Origin: a virus
DNA: 64,000 nucleotides
IMG/VR virus record: IMGVR_UViG_3300047409_000171
Coordinates: 6,156 to 70,155 of that record
Reading direction: 5' to 3' (one strand)
How positions within the stretch are numbered: position 1 is the stretch's first letter; each line of letters starts with the position of its first letter. Under the pieces are notes generated by a model. That model worked only from the letters and a program-made list of their open reading frames with translations, searched no databases and was not told the origin of the DNA. Shown here piece after piece: positions 42,954 through 56,249 of the stretch. The translations under genes and the position numbers were made by a program.

Positions 42954-43535
42954 TTGCTGAACATGCGCGGTACAGATCACTATGGCGGCGGCGGGATGGG
43001 CGTGATCGCCATTGCTGCGGCGATTGTGCTGATCCTGCTGTTGGCATCCTGCACCAACGCGCGGGCGTACCATCCGAACGCAAAACCTACGTTCGGAACA
43101 TACTCGCAGAAGTACCTCGATAAGCAGGAGCGGAAGCGGGTCAACTGCGCCAAGGTCAAGAGGTGCAGAGGCGGACGGGACTTATGTCGTGGAGGCTCTT
43201 GGCAGGCAGAGTCATGTAGCGCTCCTGTTCACCGGATGCTGCGAGTGCGCCCATGGTTCGCGGCGAAGATCCGCCAATATACCACAGCGCTTTTCGATCC
43301 GCTCCAATCCCTGGAACAGCGGCATGTAGGCGAGCCGGAGACGAAACCTGATGATGTCTGCTATGCCCTCGCGGAAGATCATGACCGACTCGTCTCCCCA
43401 TCTCGGGGCAATGCAGCCAAGGCGCCAATCTCTATGCGTTTCAGCGGCTGCGGCGCGGAACCGTTCGGCTCGCGTGCTGTAGCACTCTCGTTGCAGGTTC
43501 AACTCGCTTTCGAGGAAGGCTTGCAGCGCGGTTAG
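42954..43535 (+). CDS. Possible lipoprotein (spanin-like?); 3' half overlaps a convergent gene
   Basis: Hydrophobic stretch ending in LASC lipobox; at the end of the lysis module. Confidence 0.4.
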   Translation: MLNMRGTDHYGGGGMGVIAIAAAIVLILLLASCTNARAYHPNAKPTFGTYSQKYLDKQERKRVNCAKVKRCRGGRDLCRGGSWQAESCSAPVHRMLRVRPWFAAKIRQYTTALFDPLQSLEQRHVGEPETKPDDVCYALAEDHDRLVSPSRGNAAKAPISMRFSGCGAEPFGSRAVALSLQVQLAFEEGLQRG

Positions 43536-43565
43536 GACCGCATCTTCGGTGCCGGTGTTGTTCAT
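43212..43565 (-). CDS. Hypothetical protein
   Basis: ATGA-coupled last gene of the leftward operon. Confidence 0.5.
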   Translation of the reverse strand: MNNTGTEDAVLTALQAFLESELNLQRECYSTRAERFRAAAAETHRDWRLGCIAPRWGDESVMIFREGIADIIRFRLRLAYMPLFQGLERIEKRCGILADLRREPWAHSQHPVNRSAT

Positions 43566-43765
43566 CTGACGTCCCCTCGGAGATAAGGCAAAGATTCCTG
43601 ATGCGCCAATAAGTGCAGGTAAACCAAATCACTAATCTGACCCAGTTGCATTCCGCAAGCAGCCAGCGAGGCTGTGAAAACGACCGTACCGAATTCGCCA
43701 TCGCGATACCGCTGGACGATGCCTGCGATTTTCTCGGACTGCGCCTCTGGATCGTGGAAGGTCAT
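43562..43765 (-). CDS. Hypothetical protein
   Basis: ATGA-coupled at both ends. Confidence 0.55.
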   Translation of the reverse strand: MTFHDPEAQSEKIAGIVQRYRDGEFGTVVFTASLAACGMQLGQISDLVYLHLLAHQESLPYLRGDVR

Positions 43766-44067
43766 CGCGATTTCCACTCCGCTAGGTCGCGCTGATATTG
43801 CCGTACCAGTTCCAGAGTTTTCCGGTCTGGCTTGAACTCCGGGATATCGGCACGCTGGAATATCGGCATTTCCAGCGGACCCCACTTCCTGACCTTCTTT
43901 GCCGTCACCAGTTCGTGCAGCGCCTGCTTGATGTGGTTATAGCTTCCGACGTCCATAGCGCGGTAAACCTGTTTTGCCGTCATCCACGCCGGCGGCCGCG
44001 ACATGGCCGCGAGGACCAGTTCCTGAAACTCTGGCTTTGCGCGCCCATCTCCTCGAGGGCGGGTCAT
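43762..44067 (-). CDS. Winged-helix-like protein
   Basis: MTAKQVY......IKQALHELV..KKV. Confidence 0.55.
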   Translation of the reverse strand: MTRPRGDGRAKPEFQELVLAAMSRPPAWMTAKQVYRAMDVGSYNHIKQALHELVTAKKVRKWGPLEMPIFQRADIPEFKPDRKTLELVRQYQRDLAEWKSR

Positions 44068-44687
44068 GCCGGACGACTCCCCGGCGGCGGAGAATCGTCC
44101 GGTGGGAGGCGTGTTTCCACGCTGCCTATGTCGGGTCTCCCTCCTACCACCTCCTCCCGTTGGGGCTGGCCCTCCGCCAGCGATTGCTTAGGCGCTGGCG
44201 CTTTGGTGCGCGGGCGCTTGTTCTTCGGCGCAGGGTCCGGAGTATCCGTTACCCCCACCATGGCCTCGATTTCGGCCTTGAGTACATTGCGGTCCATGCT
44301 AGGCAGAAACTTCATCACCACGACATCGGTCACGCGCCGCAGCAGGCGAATCCATGTGTCCGCGCTCAGGCCGGATATGGACTTGACGCGCAGTTCCGAC
44401 TTGTTGCGCAGGTGATCGTGAATCAGTTTGAAGTGCTTGACCTCGAGCAAGATGCGATCGGCGCAATCCTTCTTGTCCAGGAACCCGTCGGGCGAGTTTT
44501 CGCTGACCTTCCCAATTAATGCCCAGAAAAATTTGAGGTATTTCAGATTGGCCGGCACGGTGCATTCGGCCTTGACCTCGGCATCCATGGGTAGGCTGCT
44601 GAATTCCTCGCGAAAAACTTCCGTGTCTAGGAATAGGCCAACCTCGTTCGGCTGCGCGCGGCGCTTGCGGAAGATGATTTCCGTCAT
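44064..44687 (-). CDS. NinB/DUF1367-like recombination protein
   Basis: N.KYLKFFWAL, KSIS; downstream of recT. Confidence 0.5.
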   Translation of the reverse strand: MTEIIFRKRRAQPNEVGLFLDTEVFREEFSSLPMDAEVKAECTVPANLKYLKFFWALIGKVSENSPDGFLDKKDCADRILLEVKHFKLIHDHLRNKSELRVKSISGLSADTWIRLLRRVTDVVVMKFLPSMDRNVLKAEIEAMVGVTDTPDPAPKNKRPRTKAPAPKQSLAEGQPQREEVVGGRPDIGSVETRLPPDDSPPPGSRPA

Positions 44688-44827
44688 TGGGCCAGACTTT
44701 CGCATGCGCGGCACATGATGCGATCCCGCGACTGTTCTATCGGACAATGGAATGGCCACTTGCAGGTCAGACATCGGATCGTGATGTAGCCGCTGCTGTT
44801 CGGCCAACTAAGGATGTTGCGAGACAT
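44684..44827 (-). CDS. 47-aa Zn-finger protein
   Basis: MSRNIL...CLTC...CRAC; ATGA-coupled. Confidence 0.5.
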   Translation of the reverse strand: MSRNILSWPNSSGYITIRCLTCKWPFHCPIEQSRDRIMCRACESLAQ

Positions 44828-44829
44828 GG

Positions 44830-45741
44830 CTATTCGTCCGAATTTAGAGCGGCTTGGCGCTTGTCATACGCCGCCAAAAGATCGTCGTAATCACTCGGGA
44901 AAACCGCCTGCGTCCCGCGATGCTTCTCGACCTCGGCATTCCAGAAGCCCTCAAGCTCCCCGGGGTCAGAAATATCTCCGATCTTGACGCCGACAGCGTT
45001 GAACCACGCATCGTAGTCCGCGGAGATATTCGGCAGGAGGTAGCGGTTTGGCTGAGGTCCCGAGGTGATCGGGTCATCTTTCGGTGGGGCTCGCGCATCA
45101 TCCATCCGACGTTCAATGGCTTCATCAATCGTAGCCGGTGTCTCCGTCTCGCTCGGGCTCGGCACGCGCAGCGGCGCCTTTGGCGTGACGTCGACCGCCT
45201 CCGCGATCGTGCGGCCCTCGTCCTCGTCGTAGATGCCGGCAAAACCGAAGGCGTAGCGCGCGGCCTGGATCATGGATTTGTGCCGGAGCATGCGGTGGCG
45301 CATTTTCCACGGCTCGGTCGGCCGGATGCACTCCGATAGATATTCGGTGACCGCGGTCGGGTGCTTCCGGTCCTTCCGGTGCATTGTGCAGGTGTAGGAG
45401 AACAGTTCGCCCTTCTCGTCGTACCCCGGCTCAAAGTCGAAGCCATCGCACTGCGGATGCGAGTTGACGAGGTTCAGCCATCCGTCGACCGACACAATCG
45501 GAACGATGCCGCCGCCCTTGCTGGAAAAGGCGTAGATTTGCTTTGTGATCGGGTTGAGATCGTATTCCTTGGCGACCAGCAGGAACGCCGCAAATTCCTC
45601 TCGGCTCGGGACGCGCCCGTTCTTGTCTGGCGGCATGCAGGTGGCGCGCACCGTCGCCTCGAACGCCGCCGGCTCCATGCCGTAGCGGTCGCTCATGTCG
45701 ATCAGGACGGACTTGGGTTTGATAATTGCGGGTACGTTCAA
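44830..45741 (-). CDS. bet: RecT/Bet single-strand annealing protein
   Basis: FLLVAKEYDLNP.TKQIYAF, PIVSVDGW, EYLSEC, RMLRHK..IQ.ARYAFGF.GIYDEDE. Confidence 0.9.
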   Translation of the reverse strand: MNVPAIIKPKSVLIDMSDRYGMEPAAFEATVRATCMPPDKNGRVPSREEFAAFLLVAKEYDLNPITKQIYAFSSKGGGIVPIVSVDGWLNLVNSHPQCDGFDFEPGYDEKGELFSYTCTMHRKDRKHPTAVTEYLSECIRPTEPWKMRHRMLRHKSMIQAARYAFGFAGIYDEDEGRTIAEAVDVTPKAPLRVPSPSETETPATIDEAIERRMDDARAPPKDDPITSGPQPNRYLLPNISADYDAWFNAVGVKIGDISDPGELEGFWNAEVEKHRGTQAVFPSDYDDLLAAYDKRQAALNSDE

Positions 45742-45823
45742 TTCGTCCTCCTTTGGAGTTGGCCACCAACGGCCACGACGCGAGCACCATGGGGCCGCGC
45801 CGCGCCGTTGTCAATTGCGAGAT

Positions 45824-46882
45824 TTACCGAACGTCGGATTTTTCTTCGACCGTGGCGCCGGGCACCGCGATCCCGGCCCGGACTGCTTTTTGGGCCAGAT
45901 CGGACAGAACCTTGATAACCTCCGGCGCCTCCCGGAACTGCTGGAACACCCTGTCGACGTCGATCTCCGTGACGAATTTGACGAGGTTGACGTGCGCCGC
46001 GCGGCCGGCACCGCCCCTGATCTGGGCTGCGGGCGGCGGTACATTCGATTTGACCGGTTCCGGGGGCGGCGGGGCTGGCTGGTTCGCTGCAGCAGCCTTG
46101 GCCGTAGCTTCGGCATGCTCCCGGGCGGCCTTCTCAGCGGCCTCCGCAGCGAGCCTGGCGGCCTTGCGTTTCTCGTCCTCCCATGCGCCCATCGCTTTCT
46201 TGATCGTGCTGGACGCCTCGTCGGCGGCATCCCGGAGCGGGAACCACAATTCGCGCAGTTTCTTCTGCTGTTCGAGCAATGGCCGATTGGCCGCCTCGTA
46301 ATGCTTGCCAGCCTCGCCGCGCAGGTCCAGGAACCGGTTTTGCAGGGACCGCGCCTTGGCGGCCATTTCGTCGGAATCGATGGTGGCGTATTTGGCGAGG
46401 AGTTTTTCGCTATCGGCCAATTCTCGGATAATTTTCCCGTGCGGGTCCATCACATCTGCAGCAATGACATCCAATGCCTGCTTGCGGTTTTGGATTATCA
46501 TTTCCGTGCGGTCGAGTGATCCGCTTGAATTCGCCACCGGTATTGATGCTACGGTCTCGTGGCTGTCTGGCCACCGCTCGCCCCGCTCAGAAACGGAGCG
46601 AAACCATTCCTCTGATATCGGATTTGCAGCGCAGTAGCTCCACAATTCATTGATGCGGTCGCGGTCGGTGATGATGGTCTCGTTGCCGTGCTGACCGACT
46701 TGCGCCGTGAGTTCGCCGCTAGCATGGAAGATTGCCACTGGCGACCATCCGACGCGCTTGCGGGCTTTGTTTTCCTGTTTCTCGTAGACGCCCTGCCGAT
46801 AGAATCCTGGTTGCGGATCGTCGACGAACATCTTCGGCTTCTCGCCAGCGATCGCGGCTTTCCAATATGCGTATGTGGTCAC
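45824..46882 (-). CDS. Conserved phage coiled-coil protein
   Basis: PQPGFYR, W.PVAI, long coiled coil, C-terminal VPG.TV.E. Confidence 0.7.
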   Translation of the reverse strand: MTTYAYWKAAIAGEKPKMFVDDPQPGFYRQGVYEKQENKARKRVGWSPVAIFHASGELTAQVGQHGNETIITDRDRINELWSYCAANPISEEWFRSVSERGERWPDSHETVASIPVANSSGSLDRTEMIIQNRKQALDVIAADVMDPHGKIIRELADSEKLLAKYATIDSDEMAAKARSLQNRFLDLRGEAGKHYEAANRPLLEQQKKLRELWFPLRDAADEASSTIKKAMGAWEDEKRKAARLAAEAAEKAAREHAEATAKAAAANQPAPPPPEPVKSNVPPPAAQIRGGAGRAAHVNLVKFVTEIDVDRVFQQFREAPEVIKVLSDLAQKAVRAGIAVPGATVEEKSDVR

Positions 46883-47088
46883 TTCGGCTCATCCTTCTTG
46901 GCGTGCGGAAACTTGCCCTTGATATTCTGATGGAAGAACGTGCCGGGACTTTCCGCCGTCAGTATCTTGTGGAGCATGTCAGCGGGGACACCGTCGTATT
47001 CATACGTCCCGCCGTTGGTGAATTTTACGGTCAACGTCTTGCCCTCGTGTCCGATTTCTTCAATGTTCGACGACTTGACCTTATGCAT
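46879..47088 (-). CDS. KTSC domain protein
   Basis: VKSSNI..IG.....L.V.F.NGG.Y.Y.GVP...S.G.FF..NIK. Confidence 0.9.
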   Translation of the reverse strand: MHKVKSSNIEEIGHEGKTLTVKFTNGGTYEYDGVPADMLHKILTAESPGTFFHQNIKGKFPHAKKDEPK

Positions 47089-47260
47089 TGTCCTTCTCCC
47101 GTTTTTCGATCCGCGCCAACTCGGCCTCGATCAGCGTTTCCAGCGCAGCCATGATCCATGATTCCGTCGCGACACGACCTTCTAGCCCGCGGTGTTTGCG
47201 GATTTCGAGTAAGCCAACGATTTTCGATTTCGTATTTTGCGGCTGCCCTTGCGTGGCCAT
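47081..47260 (-). CDS. Hypothetical protein
   Basis: Short ORF in the operon, overlaps the upstream gene. Confidence 0.4.
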   Translation of the reverse strand: MATQGQPQNTKSKIVGLLEIRKHRGLEGRVATESWIMAALETLIEAELARIEKREKDNA

Positions 47261-47616
47261 TGGCTTTTTGTCCTCAGTTTGCTGCCGAATCCCCTCGGCT
47301 TTATAGTTTGACGCGGCTTGCGCTTCTTTTTCGGTGCGCCGCCGGTCCCGCCGTACTCGGCATAGAGGCGTGCGGCGATATCGAATGGATTTTTGGCATG
47401 CACCCCCCAGAACATGGATTCGTTCATGGTGTGCTGCTCGCGGTGGCATGCCGGGCACAATGGGGTTGCAAACCTATCGTCTGGCTTCTTCCCGAGTGCA
47501 CCGAACCCGATGCGAATGTGACATGCCTCCGAAGGTGGACCGCGACCGCACGCGGAACAGGAGCGGCCGCGTAGAAACGCCAGAAATTTATCGTCATGGA
47601 GCCTCGGCCTGCTCAT
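47182..47616 (-). CDS. DUF968-like HNH-fold protein
   Basis: FLAFLR...C..CG...EACH.R...KPDD...PLC..CHREQH. Confidence 0.8.
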   Translation of the reverse strand: MSRPRLHDDKFLAFLRGRSCSACGRGPPSEACHIRIGFGALGKKPDDRFATPLCPACHREQHTMNESMFWGVHAKNPFDIAARLYAEYGGTGGAPKKKRKPRQTIKPRGFGSKLRTKSQWPRKGSRKIRNRKSLAYSKSANTAG

Positions 47617-47713
47617 GCGGGCAACGCTGTCCAGATGTAGACCCACACGATGACGACGGCGGCAATCCCCGCCGTCTCGAATGCGCAGAGCGCGAGTTGC
47701 TTGGCGAGGCGCA

Positions 47714-47965
47714 TCAGAACAAAATCTCGTCGTCAGCGATTACCGATTGCGGCGCAACTGCGGGCTCCTCGAATTGCTTGATTACGGCCGTGATGGCTTC
47801 AGCCAAAGCAATCGAGAGTTTTGAGTTCTCGGTGTGGACGGTAAATTCACCAAACCCGTTTGGGCCGCCGTCGAACTTGAGGATAAGCGGGGCAGACGCC
47901 AACTCGGCATACGTTATGGCGCTGACGAGCTTGACGTTTTGAAGGGACATGCTGCTGAAAAACAT
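47714..47965 (-). CDS. Hypothetical protein, first gene of the leftward operon
   Basis: AGGAG RBS. Confidence 0.6.
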   Translation of the reverse strand: MFFSSMSLQNVKLVSAITYAELASAPLILKFDGGPNGFGEFTVHTENSKLSIALAEAITAVIKQFEEPAVAPQSVIADDEILF

Positions 47966-48015
47966 TTGGTCTCTCCTATTTTGAGGCGAGCCACTGAGCG
48001 GCTCCGACCCGTCCG

Positions 48016-48081
48016 AATGTAGTGGATATATCGGGCCTGTCAATACTATAATTGACGCCACGATGATTTTTGGTGTATGAA
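48016..48081. promoter_or_regulatory. Back-to-back divergent promoters
   Basis: GTCAAT-N6-ATTGAC; TTGACA..TACATT leftward, TTGACG..TATGAA rightward. Confidence 0.65.
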
Positions 48082-48087
48082 CCGTGC

Positions 48088-48417
48088 ATGGCTAAAAAAC
48101 AGACCAGTTTTGAGCGGGTTATCTACGCGGTGGTGGCCAAGTTCGAGGCCGAGCACGGAACCGTAAACGGTGCCATGACGTGGCTGGCCAACGGCGTTGG
48201 CGTCAGCAAGCAGGCGATAAACCAGGCCAAGACAAAAGGCCGGTTCCCGGACGGATATCTGGCAAAAATCAGCAAATTCACGGGGATACCGGTGCCGACG
48301 CTGCAGGGCGACCCGACGGATGAAGTCGTGGAATTGTCGCGGCGCTGGCGCATATCGGTACGGGATACCGAGGTGGCGCTGATCCGCATCGGATTGGACC
48401 ACGCAAATCGAAAGTGA
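48088..48417 (+). CDS. Cro-like HTH regulator
   Basis: WLANGVGVSKQAINQ...G.FP; probably a leaderless mRNA. Confidence 0.65.
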   Translation: MAKKQTSFERVIYAVVAKFEAEHGTVNGAMTWLANGVGVSKQAINQAKTKGRFPDGYLAKISKFTGIPVPTLQGDPTDEVVELSRRWRISVRDTEVALIRIGLDHANRK

Positions 48418-48438
48418 CCGCCAGCAAAAGGAGCACCC

Positions 48439-49074
48439 ATGGCAAGACCGAAGAAAGCTGATACCGAGAAAAAACCCCGTAAACCACGAGAGACAAAGGC
48501 GAAAGCTGCGCCGGACGCCAAGGCGGCTGACCGGACCAATGAGCCGAAGGCCGATCCTGAGCTCCGTGCGCTGGCAATCTCGCACCGCGACAAATACTCC
48601 AAACTGAAGGAACGGCTGGGGAAAGCGCAGAGTGACATGCGTGCTTTCGGCAAGGAAGTGAAGCAGGACGGCTTCACTCTCAGGCAGATAAAACTGATGG
48701 TCGAACTGTCCACGCCCGAGGGCGAACAGGCTTGGCGGATGACGATCGCCAATGACCTTATTGCGGCGCAATATCAGGGGGCGGCAATCGGGCAACAGTT
48801 GGCCCTATTTTTAGAGCCGGACCGTACTCCAGCTGTGGATATTGCCTATGACCAAGGCGTTTTCGACTGTGTCGAGGGCAAAACTGCCAAGTCACCCTAC
48901 GCACCGTCGGTGCCACAGACGCAATCCTACCTCAAGGGCTATGCAGACGAGCAGGAACGGCGCCTGAAGGGCGGGATCAAGAAATTGGACCCGGAGCAGC
49001 AGGCCGACCGCGCGGCTACCCTTGCGGCTGCTAGGGGCTCTACGGTGCCTCCTGCGCCGGACACTACGCACTGA
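48439..49074 (+). CDS. GapR/DUF2312-like DNA-binding protein
   Basis: Coiled coil then E.K.DGF....IK. Confidence 0.5.
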   Translation: MARPKKADTEKKPRKPRETKAKAAPDAKAADRTNEPKADPELRALAISHRDKYSKLKERLGKAQSDMRAFGKEVKQDGFTLRQIKLMVELSTPEGEQAWRMTIANDLIAAQYQGAAIGQQLALFLEPDRTPAVDIAYDQGVFDCVEGKTAKSPYAPSVPQTQSYLKGYADEQERRLKGGIKKLDPEQQADRAATLAAARGSTVPPAPDTTH

Positions 49075-49556: not shown

Positions 49557-50254
49557 ACCTTACAGAAGCAAGATCAATCGTGGGAACGCTTAGTTTCCCG
49601 TCTAAAATGCCAGGAACTGCATTCGCCATTTCAGCGGCACTATGCATTGCTGGATCAAAATTGGCTAAAGTCGTCGGCAGCACCTGCCATGGATGCTACG
49701 CGCTCCGAACCCACTACATTCGGGCTAATCCGCAGAAAGCCATGCGAAAGCGAATGGCTGGCCTTTCGGATACCCGATGGGTAGAGGCTGTGGTGACGCT
49801 GCTTCGTCACAAGCATAGTTTCCCGGAGTTTCGTATTGATCTTGGCATTCGTGATGCGAAGGCGAGGGGTCTCCAGCGCTGGCGCATGAACGCTTCAGGC
49901 TGGCACAGATGGCACGACAGCGGCGATCTGCAAGGCGTTTGGCATCTTGCCAAAATCTGCGAGGTTGCAGCGCAAACACCTAAAATCCGGCATTGGCTGG
50001 CGACGCGCGAAACGCAGATGGTTCTGGACTATGTGAGCGGCGGCGGGATCATCCCGAACAATATGGTGATCCGCGTATCTGCCGCGATGGTCGATAGGCC
50101 GCCGCCGAAAGCGTGGCCATTGACTTCGACCGTACATGATCTGGTTATGCCATCCGGACACATTTGCCCTGCACCGGAGCAGAACCATGAATGCGGATCG
50201 TGCCGCGCGTGCTGGTCTAAAGACGTGGCTAACGTGAGCTACCAAAAGCACTAA
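49553..50254 (+). CDS. GP88-like Cys-rich protein
   Basis: SKMPG, C..GSKL...GSTC.GCYA, RWHDSGDL, HWL.TRE, C.SCRACW. Confidence 0.75.
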   Translation: MNLTEARSIVGTLSFPSKMPGTAFAISAALCIAGSKLAKVVGSTCHGCYALRTHYIRANPQKAMRKRMAGLSDTRWVEAVVTLLRHKHSFPEFRIDLGIRDAKARGLQRWRMNASGWHRWHDSGDLQGVWHLAKICEVAAQTPKIRHWLATRETQMVLDYVSGGGIIPNNMVIRVSAAMVDRPPPKAWPLTSTVHDLVMPSGHICPAPEQNHECGSCRACWSKDVANVSYQKH

Positions 50255-50329
50255 AATCAATAGGTAGTATGCCGCCGTAAATTTTTTCTATTTGTTGGGC
50301 TTGCCCAACTAGCCGAATCGGCTTCAAAT

Positions 50330-50790
50330 GCCACAAAGCCGCCACGGGTGCGTCCGCAGCGGCTTCGGGTAACACCGCGCAGACTTTTGAGACGGGATGC
50401 GCAGCCAGAGCAAGATATAGGCGAATTAGCCGAATTGCTCAACCCCCAAATCCCGTCAGCCCGGACTAGTTCCGACTGAGCCAAGTCAATCCACAAAAAT
50501 CGCACTGGTCCGGCAGGCTATCCGGGGAAGAAGCGGGCGGGCACTTACCATGCTTTGCATGGGTTCCGACCGTGACAGTTGTGGACTAGCAGGCTGTCAG
50601 AAACCACGGCCACTTATGGCGTTTTCGTTCCCAATCCGGAGGGAATAGTCCGGGGCCAGACGAGGTGGCGCTCGCTAAAACGCACCGTGGTTATACCCGC
50701 TATCTAGTCGTCTCAACCGCATGGCCTACTAACCCTAGTGTCGAAAGGCAGCAAAGAGAGGGGTTAGGTAGATAGGCCAGACGTTGCGGA
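50330..50790 (+). ncRNA. Candidate large structured non-coding RNA / origin region upstream of dnaB
   Basis: No credible ORF; many nested helices, a GAAA tetraloop and G-U pairs on the + strand. Confidence 0.45.
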
Positions 50791-50816
50791 AACGGACCTA
50801 TGGGAGAAAGGACTTT

Positions 50817-52262
50817 ATGAAGCGCGAAACCCCAGCCCAGTACGGCCCGCACGACATCCAAGCCGAACAGGAATTGCTTGGGTGCTTGCTGCTATACAAC
50901 AAGACGCATCAATTTATTTCCAGCATCGTTCACCCAGAGCATTTCTTTGAGCCCATTCACCAAGAAATATACGACATCTGCGGCAAACTCATCACAATGG
51001 GCAAGCCAGCGACGCCGACGACGGTCAAGACGTTCCTGCCGGCCGATCTCATGATTGCGGAAGGAATGTCGGTTGGGAAGTACCTCGCGAAGCTGGCGGC
51101 GAGCGCCACCACCATGATATCGGCGCCAGACTTCGCGGGCATCGTGCGGGATTTGGCCGACTATCGGGCGATCATGTCCGTGGTCGAGATGGCTGCGGCC
51201 GTGAAGGGAATCGACAGTGACCCCGGGAAAGCAGCAACAGCGGCAATCGACATGCTGGACGCCATCGTGGCCGAGCGGACAATAGGGAATGTGCCTTCCC
51301 TGACGCTAGGAGCGTCCGTAGTGCGGGCTGTGGACGCCGCGGCCAAGGCTTACCAGAACGACGGCGCGCTCACCGGCATGCCCTACGGGCTCAGGGATTT
51401 GGACCGTAAAACCTCCGGACTAGCGAAGGGCGAATTGACGATCTTGGCGGGACGCCCGGGGATGATGAAAACCGGACTGGCGCTGAATTTCTGCCGCTCA
51501 CTCGGGAAGGCTGGGCACAAGGGGATATTTTTCAGCCTTGAGATGGGCGACGAATCGCTGAGCCGGCGGATGATATCGGACATGCTTTTCGACCGGTACG
51601 AGCTCCCGCATTTCCGGATGAAGGCTGGGAGCATCAACGAGCAGGATTTTGGTCGCATGACGGAGGCGGCCAAGGAATTGAACGATCTGCCGCTGCGGAT
51701 TGAGCAGCAAACTGGGCTTTCGATATCGCAGATTGCGTCCCGGGCCCGGCAGATGAAGCGACGCGAGGGACTGGACTTCATCGTGGTCGACCACATCGGC
51801 CACGTCGCGGTCGAGGATCGCTACCGCGGCAACCGCAACAACGAAATCGGCGAGATCACCAAGGGGCTGTTGCGGCTGGCCCGCGAACTGGACGTCGGCA
51901 TGGTCGCGTTGTGCCAGCTATCTCGAGGTGTGGAGAGTCGGGAAAACAAGAAGCCATCGCTTGGCGATTTGAGGGATTCGGGCGAACTTGAGCAGGACGC
52001 TGCGACGGTGATGTTTGTCTACCGGGAAGCCTACTACTTGGCGAACAAGGAGCCGCGCGCGGGTACCGCCGAATACGAGGTTTGGCAGGCTGAGATGACG
52101 CGCTGCATCAACGATCTTGAAATTATCATATCGAAACAAAGGGATGGTGCCGTGGGCACGGTGCGATGCTACGTCGACGTGACGACCAATGCTGTGCGTG
52201 AGCAGGGTTGGACGCGCGATGCGTGGAGCAATTTGCCAGACGGCGACAGGTTTGAATTCTGA
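50817..52262 (+). CDS. dnaB: Replicative DNA helicase
   Basis: AEQELLG, LAGRPGMMKT, FFSLEM, VVDH, LCQLSR.VE.R..K.P.L.DLRDSGELEQDA, KQRDG. Confidence 0.95.
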   Translation: MKRETPAQYGPHDIQAEQELLGCLLLYNKTHQFISSIVHPEHFFEPIHQEIYDICGKLITMGKPATPTTVKTFLPADLMIAEGMSVGKYLAKLAASATTMISAPDFAGIVRDLADYRAIMSVVEMAAAVKGIDSDPGKAATAAIDMLDAIVAERTIGNVPSLTLGASVVRAVDAAAKAYQNDGALTGMPYGLRDLDRKTSGLAKGELTILAGRPGMMKTGLALNFCRSLGKAGHKGIFFSLEMGDESLSRRMISDMLFDRYELPHFRMKAGSINEQDFGRMTEAAKELNDLPLRIEQQTGLSISQIASRARQMKRREGLDFIVVDHIGHVAVEDRYRGNRNNEIGEITKGLLRLARELDVGMVALCQLSRGVESRENKKPSLGDLRDSGELEQDAATVMFVYREAYYLANKEPRAGTAEYEVWQAEMTRCINDLEIIISKQRDGAVGTVRCYVDVTTNAVREQGWTRDAWSNLPDGDRFEF

Positions 52263-53037: not shown

Positions 53038-53463
53038 ATGACCGCAACGCTATTCGACTTTCCGTCGCCGGCGATCAAGGCAAAGAAGAAGCCAACCAAA
53101 CAGGCCTATACGGAGGAGTTTTTAGCGTTCTGGCAATTGTATCCGCCCAGGTTCAATAGTTCCAAGTTTTTGGCGTTCAAGGCATGGCAGCGGCTGGACG
53201 AGGACGAGCAAAAGCAGGCCACGACGGCGGCGCCGATCTACGCGGCGAGCCAGCGAGGGAAAGACCCCCAATATACCCAGCACGCGGCCACATGGCTCAA
53301 CGGGAAGTATTTCGAGACGATCGCAGTGCCGAGAGCGACCGTTCCGGCGGCGCCCGTGCAGATAGATTGGCCAGCGGCATTGAAAATATACCGGGCTACC
53401 GGCCGATGGAACGTTGATTTCGGGCCTGAACCTGGCCAGCCTCATTATCGTGGGCCAAAATAA
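53038..53463 (+). CDS. Replication-initiator C-terminal-like protein
   Basis: F..FW.LYP...K..A.KAW, HAATWLN. Confidence 0.65.
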   Translation: MTATLFDFPSPAIKAKKKPTKQAYTEEFLAFWQLYPPRFNSSKFLAFKAWQRLDEDEQKQATTAAPIYAASQRGKDPQYTQHAATWLNGKYFETIAVPRATVPAAPVQIDWPAALKIYRATGRWNVDFGPEPGQPHYRGPK

Positions 53464-54324: not shown

Positions 54325-54525
54325 ATGAGCCAAACCAGCATAGCGGCAGAGATCGCCACCCGCACCGCAGCGGCAGAGCGCAAACTGGCGGTGGCTCTCG
54401 GCCACGACGCGATCGACGTTTTCGATCTGTGGAGCCGGGCCTATTTCGAGACGTTCAATCGGGCATGGGACGCACCGCGCCCGGCTGTGAACCTGCCCCT
54501 CCGGATGATCGGAAACATGACGTGA
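54325..54525 (+). CDS. Hypothetical protein
   Basis: AGGAG RBS. Confidence 0.55.
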   Translation: MSQTSIAAEIATRTAAAERKLAVALGHDAIDVFDLWSRAYFETFNRAWDAPRPAVNLPLRMIGNMT

Positions 54526-56249
54526 CGCAGCCAATTCCAGACGCAGCGCTTGATGATCGGTTGGGCTTTGTCGGCACGGCCGGATCAGGCAAGAGCTACA
54601 ACGCCATGGGCCGCGTCGAGCGGCTGCTGTCGCGCAAGGCGCGCGTGTGCTGCGTCGATCCGCTCGGGGTATTCTGGGGATTGCGCCTGGATGCAGACGG
54701 CAAATCACCGTCCGGTTTCAACATTCCTATTTTCGGCGGACCGCACGGTGACTTGCCGCTGACGGAACATTCCGGCGCCTTGATCGGCGAGACCGTGGCC
54801 GGCATGGCGGAATCCTGCATCATTGACCTGAGCGAAATCGGCACCAAGGCTGGCGAACGTCGGTTCATGCTTCATTTCCTCACGGCACTGTACCGCAAGG
54901 CCAACGGCGAGCCGCTGCACCTCGTCATTGACGAAGCGGATATGTTCGCGCCGCAGAAGATCAACGACAAGGAAGGCGAGGCCGCGAAGCTGCTCGGCAT
55001 GATGGAGACCGTGGTCAGGCGTGGGCGTATCAAGGGCTTTATCCCATGGCTGATTACCCAGCGGCCGGCAGTGATCGCCAAGGACGTTCTCAGCCAAGTT
55101 GACGGGTTGGTGGCGTTCAAGCTCACGAGTTCGCAGGATCGCGACGCGATCAGCGCATGGGTCGAAGGCTCGGCCGACAAGGACGATTGGAAGGCCATGC
55201 GCGGCGCGCTGCCGGCGATGGAACGCGGCCAAGGCGTGGTGTGGATCCCTGGGCGCGGGATCATGGAGACGGTCCGATTCCCGGAAAAATTCACGTTCGA
55301 TTCGTCCCGCACGCCGAAGCGCGGCGAGAAGAAATCGGCGGCGGCGCTGAAACCACTGGACCTCGGCTCGCTCAAGGAGCGGCTGGCGACCGTCGACGCG
55401 GAGACCAAGGCGAACGACCCCAAGGCGTTGCGCGCGCGGATTGTCGAGCTTGAGCGGCAGAAGGCGACCACGCCACCGTCGGCAATCTTTGCGGCATCAA
55501 ATGCAACTGCTCGAGCAGAAGGAGACCGCGCCGGATTTGAGCGTGCGGACCGCCAATGGCATGGCGTGATGACGGCGCCATGGGCCGCGTTCACCAATGC
55601 GTGGCAGTCCTACGAACAGTCGCGCGACCGTTTGAACGATGCAATCCGCGAAATCTCGCATGTTGTCGATGTGGCGTTGCAATACCGCGCGCCGCCGAAA
55701 TCGGGCTCGCCAGCCATCCCGGCACCAGCCCCGAAGCGCGCGCCGCTCGCCCCAGCGGTAGTGCGCAAACCGTCTCCTGCGGCGAATGGGGACGGTAGCC
55801 TTCCCAAGGGTGAGCGCCTGTGCCTGACCGCAATCGCGCAGAACAGCAACGGCATCACCCGCCAGCATTTGACCGTTGTCACCGGTTACAAGCGGTCGAC
55901 TAGGGATGCCTATATCCAGCGATTGCGGGAGAAGGGCTGCGTTGATGAGCGCGGTAGCCGTCTCTACCTGACCGACGCTGGCGGCGAAATGCTTGGCCCG
56001 TTTGACCCGCTGCCGACCGGTGCCGCGCTGCAGGATCACGTCCTTGGCACGTTGCCAGAAGGCGAGCGCGCCGTGCTGGCACTCATCATCCCCGCCTATC
56101 CCAACGGCGTCGATCGCGATACGATCAGCATCGAAACCGGCTATAAACGGTCCACGCGGGACGCCTATATTCAGCGGCTCAGCACTCGGGAATTGGTCGA
56201 TGCCAGCCGCGGTGGCGTCGTGGTCGCATCGCAGGATTTGTTCGCATGA
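54522..56249 (+). CDS. HerA/FtsK-like (DUF87) ATPase with two C-terminal winged-helix repeats
   Basis: GTAGSGKS, VDPLG, VIDEAD, RGR..G, ITQRP; repeated TGYKRSTRDAYIQRL. Confidence 0.85.
   Translation: MTQPIPDAALDDRLGFVGTAGSGKSYNAMGRVERLLSRKARVCCVDPLGVFWGLRLDADGKSPSGFNIPIFGGPHGDLPLTEHSGALIGETVAGMAESCIIDLSEIGTKAGERRFMLHFLTALYRKANGEPLHLVIDEADMFAPQKINDKEGEAAKLLGMMETVVRRGRIKGFIPWLITQRPAVIAKDVLSQVDGLVAFKLTSSQDRDAISAWVEGSADKDDWKAMRGALPAMERGQGVVWIPGRGIMETVRFPEKFTFDSSRTPKRGEKKSAAALKPLDLGSLKERLATVDAETKANDPKALRARIVELERQKATTPPSAIFAASNATARAEGDRAGFERADRQWHGVMTAPWAAFTNAWQSYEQSRDRLNDAIREISHVVDVALQYRAPPKSGSPAIPAPAPKRAPLAPAVVRKPSPAANGDGSLPKGERLCLTAIAQNSNGITRQHLTVVTGYKRSTRDAYIQRLREKGCVDERGSRLYLTDAGGEMLGPFDPLPTGAALQDHVLGTLPEGERAVLALIIPAYPNGVDRDTISIETGYKRSTRDAYIQRLSTRELVDASRGGVVVASQDLFA

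What the first reader, a model, noticed from the sequence alone, without database searches (positions are those of the whole stretch)
50255..50816. Large structured non-coding region in the initiator slot upstream of dnaB
About 560 nt without a credible ORF in a gene-dense genome. A promoter-like TTGCCC-N17-TCAAAT is covered by two palindromes (50294-50309, 50311-50323). Nested helices follow: GACGGGAT/ATCCCGTC (50391/50450) enclosing GAGCAA/TTGCTC; GACTAG/CTAGTC (50584/50704) enclosing AACCACGG/CCGTGGTT and GCGTTTT/AAAACGC; TGGCCTA-CTAACCCT/GGGGTTAG-TAGGCCA (50722/50760) enclosing TGTC-GAAA-GGCA. The GNRA loop and G-U pairs favour a + strand RNA. No iterons or full initiator gene precede dnaB. 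Inference: an undescribed ncRNA, possibly a replication primer/R-loop RNA or a regulatory leader.
Basis: partly seen in the sequence, partly recalled or inferred. Interest (0 to 1): 0.74.

Follow-up and report, generated by a model that had tools for sequence, protein, structure and literature searches.

The report
New large pseudoknotted RNA of soil phages
The gap before dnaB holds a gene-sized, intricately folded RNA element that recurs in five otherwise very different soil phages at different places in their genomes, so it looks like a new family of large phage RNA and not a part of the replication machinery.

Summary
The 562-nt gap (50255-50816) is real and non-coding. Folded alone it is not clearly special: z = -1.69 on the + strand, -2.97 on the - strand. 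Comparison settles it. Homologous ~450-500-nt elements occur in four other IMG/VR phage records, 55-75% identical in DNA. No protein family is shared by all five genomes, and some pairs share none.

A structure-blind MAFFT alignment folds far better than column shuffles (z = -6.8). On it, 17 of 54 tested pairs change on both sides (0 of 500 shuffles reach this). A hand-curated model has 14 helices and two pseudoknots, with 42 of 75 pairs compensatory.

Rfam, ARAGORN, GenBank phages, plasmids and 185,579 prokaryote genomes gave no match.

The element does not track dnaB. Only 1 of 163 dnaB loci fetched has it. One complete carrier has no DnaB-family match. In another carrier it lies between the portal and capsid genes.

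Best reading: an undescribed, mobile, large structured phage RNA. The strand is probably +, and the function is unknown. The replication-primer and dnaB-leader ideas are not supported.

The parts
50294..50323 (.). Two adjacent palindromes (GTTGGGC-TT-GCCCAAC; AGCCG-AAT-CGGCT) overlapping the promoter-like spacer. They are specific to this phage and may be operators.
   Evidence: Read. The four homologues have unrelated sequence in this spacer.
50301..50329 (+). Promoter-like TTGCCC-N17-TCAAAT. A CTTG(A/C)C box sits 33-34 nt before helix P1 in all five homologues, followed by an A-rich -10-like hexamer.
   Evidence: Sequences, positions counted by me. The sigma-70 scan did not report it in any of the 5. 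Read on the - strand, the A-rich stretch is the T-run of a terminator-like site.
50335..50366 (+). P1, the 5' hairpin (AAGCCG.../...CGGCTT). It has one compensatory pair, and each homologue has an internal C-A that would be G-U on the other strand.
   Evidence: Predicted in single-sequence folds with probability 0.88 or more in 3 of 5. Scored as a terminator on the opposite strand in 3 of 5 homologues.
50377..50457 (+). Pseudoknot domain. P2 (50377-81/50398-402) crosses P3 (50391-97/50451-57). P4 hairpin (50409-13/50435-39) has a conserved TATA-GGC apical region. Then comes the conserved CAACC.
   Evidence: Pairs with compensatory change: P2 4 of 5, P3 5 of 7, P4 4 of 5. P2 and P3 alternate in single-sequence folds, as expected of a pseudoknot.
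50459..50481 (+). Nearly invariant block GCCCGGA-N(2-3)-GTTCCGA(C/T)TGAGC, the most conserved stretch, including P5 CGGA/TCCG. A second GTTCCGAC lies at 50563.
   Evidence: Invariant in 5 of 5. Used as the search pattern. The repeat is family D4.
50509..50526 (+). Pb1 hairpin (TCCGG/CCGGG). Absent in L183.
   Evidence: 3 of 5 pairs compensatory among 4 sequences.
50532..50701 (+). P6 long-range helix (50532-36/50697-701) closing the 3' domain. It is preceded by the conserved GA(A/C)GAAGCG.
   Evidence: 1 of 5 pairs compensatory (three pair types) and 2 wobble changes. This is the least secure helix.
50548..50562 (+). Pb2 hairpin (CCATGC/GCATGG).
   Evidence: 2 of 4 pairs compensatory. Predicted independently in 4 of 5 single-sequence folds.
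50573..50599 (+). Pb3 hairpin (TGACAG/CTGTCA). Its loop TTGTGGACTAGCAGG carries the 5' strand of P7.
   Evidence: 5 of 6 pairs compensatory, 30 of 30 cells paired. Predicted in 4 of 5 single folds.
50584..50709 (+). P7 pseudoknot: GACTAG (50584-89, in the Pb3 loop) with CTAGTC (50704-09, just after P6).
   Evidence: GACTAG/CTAGT(C/T), GGTTAG/CTAACT and TGGTGA/TCACCG. 5 of 6 pairs compensatory in the curated set, 2 of 6 in the MAFFT register.
50604..50690 (+). Pc1 (CCACGG/CCGTGG) enclosing a variable multi-hairpin interior, with Pc2 TGGC/GCCA at 50617-20/50655-58.
   Evidence: 5 of 6 pairs compensatory. The interior differs between subfamilies.
50717..50789 (+). P8a (CCGCA/TGCGG) and P8b (TGGCCT/AGGCCA). 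The long distal arm 50729-50773 with the GAAA loop is window-specific.
   Evidence: P8a 4 of 5 and P8b 2 of 6 pairs compensatory. P8b is predicted in 4 of 5 single folds.
50786..50816 (+). Conserved 3' tail GCGGAA-N-CGG-N-CTATGG(G)AGAAA. Here it supplies the Shine-Dalgarno sequence of dnaB (ATG at 50817).
   Evidence: The tail is conserved in 5 of 5. A start codon follows within about 8-11 nt in 3 of 5: window, L002, L165.
50817..52262 (+). dnaB (replicative helicase). It is the neighbour here, not part of the element.
   Evidence: PF03796 4.7e-72 and PF00772 1.7e-19.

Best explanation
The gap encodes a member of an undescribed family of large, complex-folded phage RNAs. Each is about 450-490 nt, with at least 14 helices and two pseudoknots.

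SHOWN:
- The sequence and its base pairs are conserved in five soil-phage genomes that otherwise share almost nothing.
- Each genome has one copy.
- The neighbours differ from genome to genome, so the element is a self-contained module that moves between phage genomes.

INFERRED:
- It is transcribed on the + strand, in the same direction as its neighbours, from a conserved CTTGAC box 33-34 nt before the 5' hairpin.
- It has no terminator of its own, so the transcript runs on. In three phages its conserved 3' tail also serves as the ribosome-binding site of the next gene.
- The folded RNA itself is the functional product. It acts through its tertiary structure on a host component, or as a catalytic or self-assembling RNA in the manner of ROOL and GOLLD. 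It does not act as a replication primer or a dnaB-specific regulator.
For: Homologues.
- L002: nhmmer E = 8e-32. L165: 4e-30. L183 and L185: about 1e-36 with a 3-sequence profile.
- One copy per record.
- Element identity is 55-75%. No protein family is shared by all five genomes and only two are shared by three. G000-G003, G001-G003, G003-G004 and G002-G004 have no BLASTP hit at 1e-5.

Structure.
- RNAalifold on the structure-blind MAFFT alignment: -67.8 kcal/mol against -34.8 +/- 4.9 for 100 column shuffles, z = -6.8.
- The count of structure pairs on the same alignment, 54 pairs: 90.7% of cells paired against 30-49% when slid. 17 pairs change on both sides against 8.9 +/- 1.9. Covariation score 0.324 against 0.186. 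0 of 500 shuffles reach each of these.
- Curated model: 358 of 364 cells canonical, 42 of 75 pairs compensatory, 0 of 2000 shuffles reach this, and the result holds with L165 dropped.
- Local hairpins P4, Pb2, Pb3 and P8b appear in 4-5 of 5 independent single-sequence folds.

Non-coding: translated similarity hops between frames and strands.

Not a known RNA: no Rfam hit on the window or the four loci beyond chance. No tRNA or tmRNA.

Not tied to dnaB or replication.

No phage protein partner is common to all carriers.

Orientation: the element is co-oriented with the flanking genes in 5 of 5. The CTTG box is at a fixed distance in 5 of 5. An SD plus start codon follows the tail in 3 of 5.
Against: - Only five members, about four independent lineages. 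The helices of the full model were picked by eye on the + strand, which biases the counts. The unbiased counts are lower but still clear.
- No expression data. The only run that holds the DNA is the source DNA metagenome.
- The strand is not settled. alifold z is -7.35 on the - strand against -6.8 on +. Wobble counts in strand-specific alifold structures are 49 and 48. P1 followed by a T-run scores as an intrinsic terminator on the - strand in 3 of 5.
- The proposed promoter fails the sigma-70 scan in 5 of 5.
- No + strand terminator marks a 3' end, which fits a leader as well as a free RNA.
- Four of five copies lie among DNA-metabolism genes, so some link to early or replication-gene expression is not excluded.
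- Action in trans is an inference from size, complexity and modularity alone.
Confidence: 0.45

Rival explanations
1. Cis-acting leader that does not depend on which gene follows. The same + strand RNA works only on its own transcript. It might modify RNA polymerase for processive antitermination (as HK022 put RNA does), or stabilise the downstream message, or gate its ribosome-binding site.
For: - It is promoter-proximal and co-oriented with long gene arrays in 5 of 5.
- No + strand terminator-like site lies at its 3' end in any of the five.
- The conserved tail is the SD of the next gene in 3 of 5.
- In four carriers it lies in early DNA-metabolism gene arrays: immediately before the first replication gene in two (window, L002), and two genes before a primosomal/replication-initiation-like gene in a third, G002. 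This is where lambdoid phages place nut/put (recalled; put RNA from the abstract of PMC9378689).
- Needing only host RNAP would explain the lack of a shared phage protein.
Against: - It is about seven times the size of put RNA and far more complex than any known leader.
- The downstream genes are unrelated.
- In L183 and L185 the next ORF starts about 250 and 60 nt later. A further promoter-like site lies between in L185 (1 found, 0.6 expected by chance). One with a 19-nt spacer lies between in L183, by eye only.
- The tail is conserved there without any start codon after it.
Confidence: 0.25
2. The functional RNA is on the - strand. It would be an antisense-oriented ncRNA gene whose 3' end is the P1 hairpin plus U-run, a canonical intrinsic terminator, with its start near the complement of the CTATGGAG tail.
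For: - The terminator scan scores P1 plus T-run on the strand opposite to the genes in L183, L185 and L165: 12-13 pairs, 8-9 of them G-C.
- The single-sequence fold is better on the - strand, z = -2.97 against -1.69. alifold z is -7.35 against -6.78.
- Each of the five P1 stems has an internal C-A that becomes G-U on the - strand. The pair below P4 is G-C or A-C on +, so it is always canonical on -.
Against: - No promoter-like site on that strand lies beyond the tail in any of the five. In three genomes such a promoter would have to lie inside the first codons of three unrelated genes.
- The window and L002 have poor T-runs and were not scored.
- In the fixed helix set there are 13-15 G-U against 4-5 A-C on the + strand.
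- The CTTGAC box at a fixed distance has no role in this reading.
- Two GNRA loops (GAAA in the window, GCGA in L002) read on + only.
Confidence: 0.2
3. One reading: a replication primer or R-loop RNA (ColE1 RNA II-like, or a T4/T7 origin transcript) marking the phage origin beside dnaB.
For: - The length (~480 nt) and promoter-proximal folded RNA resemble RNA II (recalled).
- Four of five copies lie among recombination and replication genes.
- No full-length initiator gene was recognised next to dnaB among the genes scanned. Only a 141-aa C-terminal-like fragment was found.
Against: - In G003 the element lies between portal/scaffold-region genes and the capsid gene.
- Only 1 of 163 dnaB loci carries it.
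- The complete carrier G002 has no DnaB-family match.
- It is conserved across phages with unrelated replication proteins, whereas origins normally co-vary with their initiators (established knowledge).
- No iterons and no AT-rich unwinding stretch follow it.
- The conserved 3' end is an SD-like tail, not an RNase H or polymerase hand-over site.
Confidence: 0.05
4. A DNA-level element (packaging site, recombination site, single-strand initiation signal) or a decayed gene or mobile-element remnant, with no RNA function.
For: Covariation constrains either nucleic acid. Both strands fold equally well. There is no expression evidence.
Against: - Fourteen helices with two pseudoknots and long invariant unpaired blocks are typical of tertiary-folded RNA, not of DNA sites.
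- There is no conserved frame or protein remnant.
- There are no flanking repeats or target duplications.
- No transposase or endonuclease is consistently adjacent.
Confidence: 0.05

Closest known systems
ROOL and GOLLD RNAs (large 'ornate' bacterial and phage-associated ncRNAs)
   Same: Large size, many helices and several pseudoknots, occurrence in phage DNA, no associated protein, unknown function. Such complexity is taken to suggest sophisticated RNA-only functions (PMC5737381, passages read). Cryo-EM shows RNA-only multimers (abstract of 10.1101/2024.12.08.627333, seen).
   Different: - No match to any Rfam model, which should include these.
- Shorter: about 470 nt against 581 nt for ROOL and about 800 nt for GOLLD (recalled).
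- Not next to tRNA genes. The window's tRNA array is about 30 kb away.
- Found only in uncultivated soil phage contigs. The one motif scanned for had no true match in any prokaryote genome.
- Many more strictly conserved nucleotides over five members.
HK022 put RNA and other processive-antitermination RNAs (EAR, boxA-nut)
   Same: A cis-encoded RNA just downstream of a phage promoter and upstream of early or replication genes. It needs no phage protein (abstract of PMC9378689).
   Different: put is about 70 nt with two stem-loops (recalled). This element is about seven times longer with two pseudoknots. There is no sequence or Rfam relation. Two carriers have a further promoter-like site after it.
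ColE1 RNA II pre-primer
   Same: A promoter-proximal folded RNA of about 500 nt next to replication functions (recalled).
   Different: The element is not linked to an origin or initiator. It occurs in a head-gene module in one phage. No antisense RNA I-type unit is recognisable. No R-loop or hand-over features are seen.
Candidate structured RNAs of IMG/VR phages (Fremin et al. 2023, PMC10690425)
   Same: The same data source (IMG/VR intergenic regions) and the same kind of inference.
   Different: The main text names no motif linked to helicase or DnaB (term search). The list of more than 10,000 motifs is in supplements that were closed. I therefore cannot exclude that this element is one of their unnamed clusters.

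Membership tests
Any Rfam 15 family (4227 models, including RNase P, tmRNA, group I/II introns, riboswitches, and by expectation ROOL, GOLLD, HEARO, OLE and raiA) | Covariance-model match at or near the family's gathering score | tested here: not met
   Window at gathering threshold: only 7 tRNAs, elsewhere. The 851-nt region at E <= 10: two chance hits at 15-17 bits against gathering scores of 48-60. Four homologue loci at E <= 1: nothing on the element.
tRNA / tmRNA | ARAGORN-detectable cloverleaf or tRNA-like domain with tag ORF | tested here: not met
   0 genes in 50000-51000.
GOLLD / ROOL | Frequent location next to tRNA genes, in prophages and bacterial genomes | tested here: not met
   The tRNA array is at 18.6-20.0 kb, the element at 50.3 kb. 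0 of 26 genome contigs pattern hits were homologous.
GOLLD / ROOL | Large multi-junction, multi-pseudoknot fold supported by covariation | tested here: met
   14 helices and 2 pseudoknots. This is a resemblance in kind, not homology.
Gene-specific cis-regulatory leader or riboswitch (including a dnaB leader) | Consistently upstream of the same gene family | tested here: not met
   Next genes: dnaB; an 84-aa ORF then dnaB; an XRE HTH; a 96-aa ORF; the capsid gene after about 250 nt. Only 1 of 163 dnaB loci has it.
Replication-origin primer RNA (ColE1 RNA II type) | Fixed association with the replicon's origin and replication genes | tested here: not met
   G003 copy lies between portal/scaffold-region and capsid genes. 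The complete carrier G002 has no DnaB-family match.
Replication-origin primer RNA (ColE1 RNA II type) | RNA-DNA hybrid formation and processing at the origin | not testable with these tools
   Needs origin mapping and RNase H assays.
Processive antitermination RNA (put-like) | Lies between a promoter and the terminators it overrides, and acts in cis on RNAP | tested here: inconclusive
   A promoter-like box lies upstream in 5 of 5 by eye, but in 0 of 5 by the scan. Downstream terminators were not mapped. The size and fold are unlike put.
Group I / group II intron or intron remnant | Interrupts a gene; conserved catalytic core | tested here: not met
   The flanking genes are complete and unrelated to each other. 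No Rfam intron match.
Protein-coding gene or pseudogene | A conserved open frame or frame-consistent similarity | tested here: not met
   66 stop-to-stop segments were compared. Similarity is fragmentary and switches frame and strand.

The most novel reading that the evidence does not exclude
This is a new class of large RNA with a double-pseudoknot architecture. It spreads horizontally among unrelated soil phages as an autonomous gene. It works without any phage protein, as a ribozyme or as a self-assembling RNA-only particle comparable to ROOL/GOLLD cages. It would then be one of very few bacterial-world RNAs of this size and complexity found since those families.
Probability: 0.4. Interest if true: 0.85.

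Novelty: new variant of a known kind. Interest (0 to 1): 0.68.

Why it matters
Large, intricately folded non-coding RNAs are rare in bacteria and phages. Nearly every well-studied example turned out to do something sophisticated: catalysis, ribonucleoprotein machines, RNA-only cages.

This element is conserved at 55-75% across phage genomes that share few or no proteins. That implies strong selection on the RNA itself and repeated horizontal transfer.

It is compact at about 470 nt and has many invariant unpaired nucleotides and two pseudoknots. It is therefore a tractable target for structure probing, cryo-EM and ribozyme assays.

It also warns against reading function from a single genomic position. 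Seen only in this window it looks like part of the replication module, but its relatives show that it is not.

Tried and rejected
- Single-sequence folding did not distinguish the region from shuffles on the + strand.
- GenBank phages (INPHARED) and PLSDB plasmids gave nothing at blastn sensitivity for three different members. One search gave one unrelated 98-nt hit in the upstream genes. Searches gave no match.
- The search for related loci with DnaB alone found three loci, of which only L002 has the element. With a 26-sequence DnaB alignment it returned 80 viral and 80 metagenome loci. None carries the element by nhmmer or by the covariance model R1 (best non-member E = 0.011). Many of these loci have little upstream DNA, so '1 of 163' overstates the number really tested.
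- Pattern scans:
  - 2 stretches (1 new member, 1 known).
  - 13 stretches, 11 unrelated.
  - 2 stretches, both known.
  - 7 stretches, 5 unrelated.
  - 6 stretches. 2 were new members. 2 were chance matches inside a coding region, L184 and L186.
  - 2 stretches, both known.
  - Genome contigs: 0.
  - Genome contigs: 26 stretches. None is homologous beyond the motif. Twenty-six is about the number I expected by chance.
- The look-up of sequencing runs listed no RNA holder, only the probable source DNA run. Read laying on it showed one identical contig and no variants. This says nothing about expression.
- The search of earlier findings by sequence found nothing.
- Realigning with model R1 left the MAFFT register unchanged. 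It therefore gave no better alignment for counting P2-P4. Those helices rest on my hand alignment.
- An alternative pairing of the P7 3' strand with the 3' tail was rejected because it does not covary in L183 and L185.
- A T-arm-like or UNCG hairpin reading of the GTTCCGA block was considered. It was left open because there is no covariation either way.
- A resemblance of two blocks to RNase P conserved regions was recalled from memory. It was dropped because Rfam gives no RNase P match.
- A shared phage protein partner was sought. None is common to the five genomes. G003 and G004 are only 32% and 82% complete, so absence is not proven.
- Strand tests by wobble pairs were inconclusive.
- The supplements of PMC10690425, which list its motifs, were closed.
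Full report
WHAT IS THERE.
The window is bases 6156-70155 of a 70,155-bp IMG/VR virus record that CheckV rates complete. It came from a soil metagenome. Bases 50255-50816 lie between a GP88-family gene (PF17338) and dnaB, whose ATG is at 50817. Upstream on the same strand are a RuvC-like resolvase and, further back, a leftward RecT/exonuclease/HNH block. Downstream are DUF5131 and a 141-aa protein that matches only the C-terminal part of replication-initiation/primosomal PHROGs. The gap has only short ORFs. Folded alone, though, the + strand is not clearly better than shuffles: z = -1.69, with 4 of 100 shuffles as good. The - strand gives z = -2.97. Rfam gives nothing on the element at gathering thresholds or at E <= 10. 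ARAGORN finds nothing. The sigma-70/terminator scan finds nothing either.

HOMOLOGUES.
I searched the 562 nt with nhmmer against 163 loci fetched around DnaB relatives. One matched: L002, E = 8e-32, about 70% identity, in a phage whose DnaB is only 54% identical. Conserved blocks were then used as exact patterns on IMG/VR. This gave L165, and L183 and L185 (E about 1e-36 to a three-sequence profile). All other pattern hits were chance or unrelated: 11 of 13, 5 of 7, 2 of 6. In 185,579 prokaryote genomes one pattern hit nothing, and the other hit 26 places that share only the motif. GenBank phages and plasmids have no match. Each of the five records has one copy. Pairwise identity of the element is 55-75%. 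By contrast, G000 and G001 share 36 ORFs. G000 and G002 share 9. G000 and G004 share 2. G000-G003, G001-G003, G002-G004 and G003-G004 share none at BLASTP 1e-5. No protein family is common to all five. G003 and G004 are partial genomes. No reading frame is conserved through the element.

STRUCTURE.
On the structure-blind MAFFT alignment of the five (A3), the RNAalifold consensus energy is -67.8 kcal/mol. One hundred conservation-matched column shuffles give -34.8 +/- 4.9, so z = -6.8. I wrote ten helices that MAFFT happens to keep in register as a structure and counted them with the count of structure pairs. Results: 90.7% of 258 cells pair, against 30-49% when the partner is slid. 17 of 54 pairs change on both sides, against a shuffle mean of 8.9. 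The covariation score is 0.324 against 0.186. None of 500 shuffles reaches any of these three. The measure 'further pair types' was not above its shuffles: 26 against 25.9, reached by 288 of 500.

Aligning by hand on conserved anchors gives 14 helices and 75 pairs. 358 of 364 cells are canonical and 42 pairs have compensatory changes. None of 2000 partner shuffles reaches this, with or without the near-duplicate lineage L165. These hand-picked numbers are biased upwards, and I treat as the floor.

Two pseudoknots are supported. P2 takes three different sequences (GCGCA/TGCGC, CAGAT/ATCTG, GGGAT/ATCCC) and crosses P3. The loop of hairpin Pb3 pairs with the segment just after P6 to form P7 (GACTAG/CTAGTC, GGTTAG/CTAACT, TGGTGA/TCACCG). 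Local hairpins P4, Pb2, Pb3 and P8b also appear in 4-5 of 5 independent single-sequence folds. Long unpaired blocks are invariant, above all GCCCGGA-N(2-3)-GTTCCGA(C/T)TGAGC. P6 and Pc2 are the weakest helices. The interior of Pc1 differs between two subfamilies.

STRAND.
This is not settled by the fold. The alifold z-score is -7.35 on the - strand. Strand-specific consensus structures contain 49 and 48 wobble cells. In the fixed helix set G-U outnumbers A-C by 13 to 5 (MAFFT) or 15 to 4 (curated). However, every P1 stem has an internal C-A, and the pair below P4 is G-C or A-C; both would be canonical on the - strand. P1 followed by a T-run is scored as an intrinsic terminator on the strand opposite to the genes in 3 of 5 homologues, but not in the window or L002.

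Four things favour the + strand. The element is co-oriented with its neighbours in 5 of 5. A CTTG(A/C)C box lies 33-34 nt before P1 in 5 of 5, across an otherwise unalignable spacer. The conserved tail CTATGGAG is followed by a start codon at SD distance in 3 of 5. No promoter-like site is found on the - strand beyond the tail. The proposed + promoter itself fails the sigma-70 scan in all five. I put the + strand at roughly two to one.

CONTEXT AND FUNCTION.
The genes after the element are:
- dnaB in the window;
- an 84-aa ORF and then dnaB in L002;
- an XRE-type HTH, a 121-aa ORF and a primosomal/initiation-like protein in G002;
- a 96-aa and a 296-aa ORF and an HTH in G004, where a resolvase-like endonuclease and a DNA methylase precede it;
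- the major capsid gene in G003, about 250 nt on, with terminase, portal and a 406-aa protein before it.

G002 is complete, with terminal repeats, and has no DnaB-family match. Covariance model R1, built from the 5' domain, found no further copy in 172 loci that include 162 dnaB neighbourhoods.

The element is therefore neither a dnaB leader nor an origin feature. It behaves as an autonomous module placed at different points of co-directional gene arrays. It is far better conserved than the proteins around it, and no phage-encoded partner is common to all carriers.

I commit to this reading: the folded RNA itself is the product and acts on a host component, or as a catalytic or self-assembling RNA, while its read-through transcript incidentally provides the RBS for the next gene (0.45). 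The nearest rival is a gene-independent cis leader such as a put-like antiterminator or stabiliser (0.25). It is favoured by the missing terminator and the SD tail. It is disfavoured by the element's size, by the conserved tail without a start codon in two phages, and by further promoter-like sites after it. Those sites are weak evidence: one search found 1 where 0.6 is expected by chance. The - strand RNA (0.2), the primer RNA (0.05) and a DNA-level site (0.05) follow.

COMPARISON WITH WHAT IS KNOWN.
In kind it is closest to ROOL and GOLLD: large, multi-pseudoknotted, phage-associated RNAs of unknown function (PMC5737381, passages read; 10.1101/2024.12.08.627333, abstract). It matches no Rfam model, is not near tRNA genes, is shorter, and turned up in no prokaryote genome with the motif I scanned for. 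HK022 put RNA (PMC9378689, abstract) is the closest cis-acting analogue. ColE1 RNA II (recalled) is the closest replication analogue. It fails the defining features of both.

Fremin et al. 2023 (PMC10690425) catalogued more than 10,000 unnamed structured-RNA candidates from IMG/VR. Their text mentions no helicase-linked motif. The lists are in supplements I could not open, so prior listing as an anonymous cluster cannot be excluded. My searches of papers found no description of this RNA.

VERDICT.
The inference 'undescribed ncRNA' is right. The replication and dnaB framing is wrong. This is a credible new family of large structured phage RNA. It rests on five sequences and no expression data, and its strand and function are unresolved.

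Noticed in passing
window 50335-50366 and upstream 50324-50334; L183:10950-10980; L185:5735-5767; L165:3287-3319: The element's 5' hairpin, read on the opposite strand, is a 12-13-bp G+C-rich stem followed by a T-run. The scan calls it terminator-like in 3 of 5 homologues. It could stop antisense transcription or mark the 3' end of a - strand RNA.
   Followed up: partly
window 53038-53463: A 141-aa protein matches only the C-terminal third of replication-initiation/primosomal PHROGs (phrog_270, phrog_9327). G002 has a similar 184-aa protein two genes after its copy of the element. This may be a stand-alone helicase-loading or DnaD-like domain.
   Followed up: no
window 54429-56249: A 606-aa protein in the replication module has a terminase-large-subunit-like region (phrog_2666, residues 42-289). 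It also has a weak wHTH-PRTase-associated match below the Pfam cut-off.
   Followed up: no
L183:10523-10599: A sub-threshold Rfam match to suhB/mmgR sRNA (RF00519; 32.9 bits, gathering 41, E = 0.0036) lies about 350 nt upstream of the element in phage G003.
   Followed up: no
proteins P0039 and P0045: Two DnaB relatives of 814 aa carry a LAGLIDADG domain (PF14528). These are probably intein-containing helicases in related phages.
   Followed up: no
G002 (57,864 bp, terminal repeats, rated complete): A complete carrier phage shows no DnaB-family helicase match (PF03796). It does have a primosomal/initiation-like protein, so it probably recruits the host helicase.
   Followed up: partly
window 43200-48800 and L220:2778-4108: The window phage and G004 share the same layout: a leftward ssDNA-annealing protein plus exonuclease block facing a rightward resolvase block that contains the element. 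The proteins themselves are non-homologous (RecT against Erf).
   Followed up: no
This fits the non-canonical tRNAs noted earlier in this scan.
   Followed up: no
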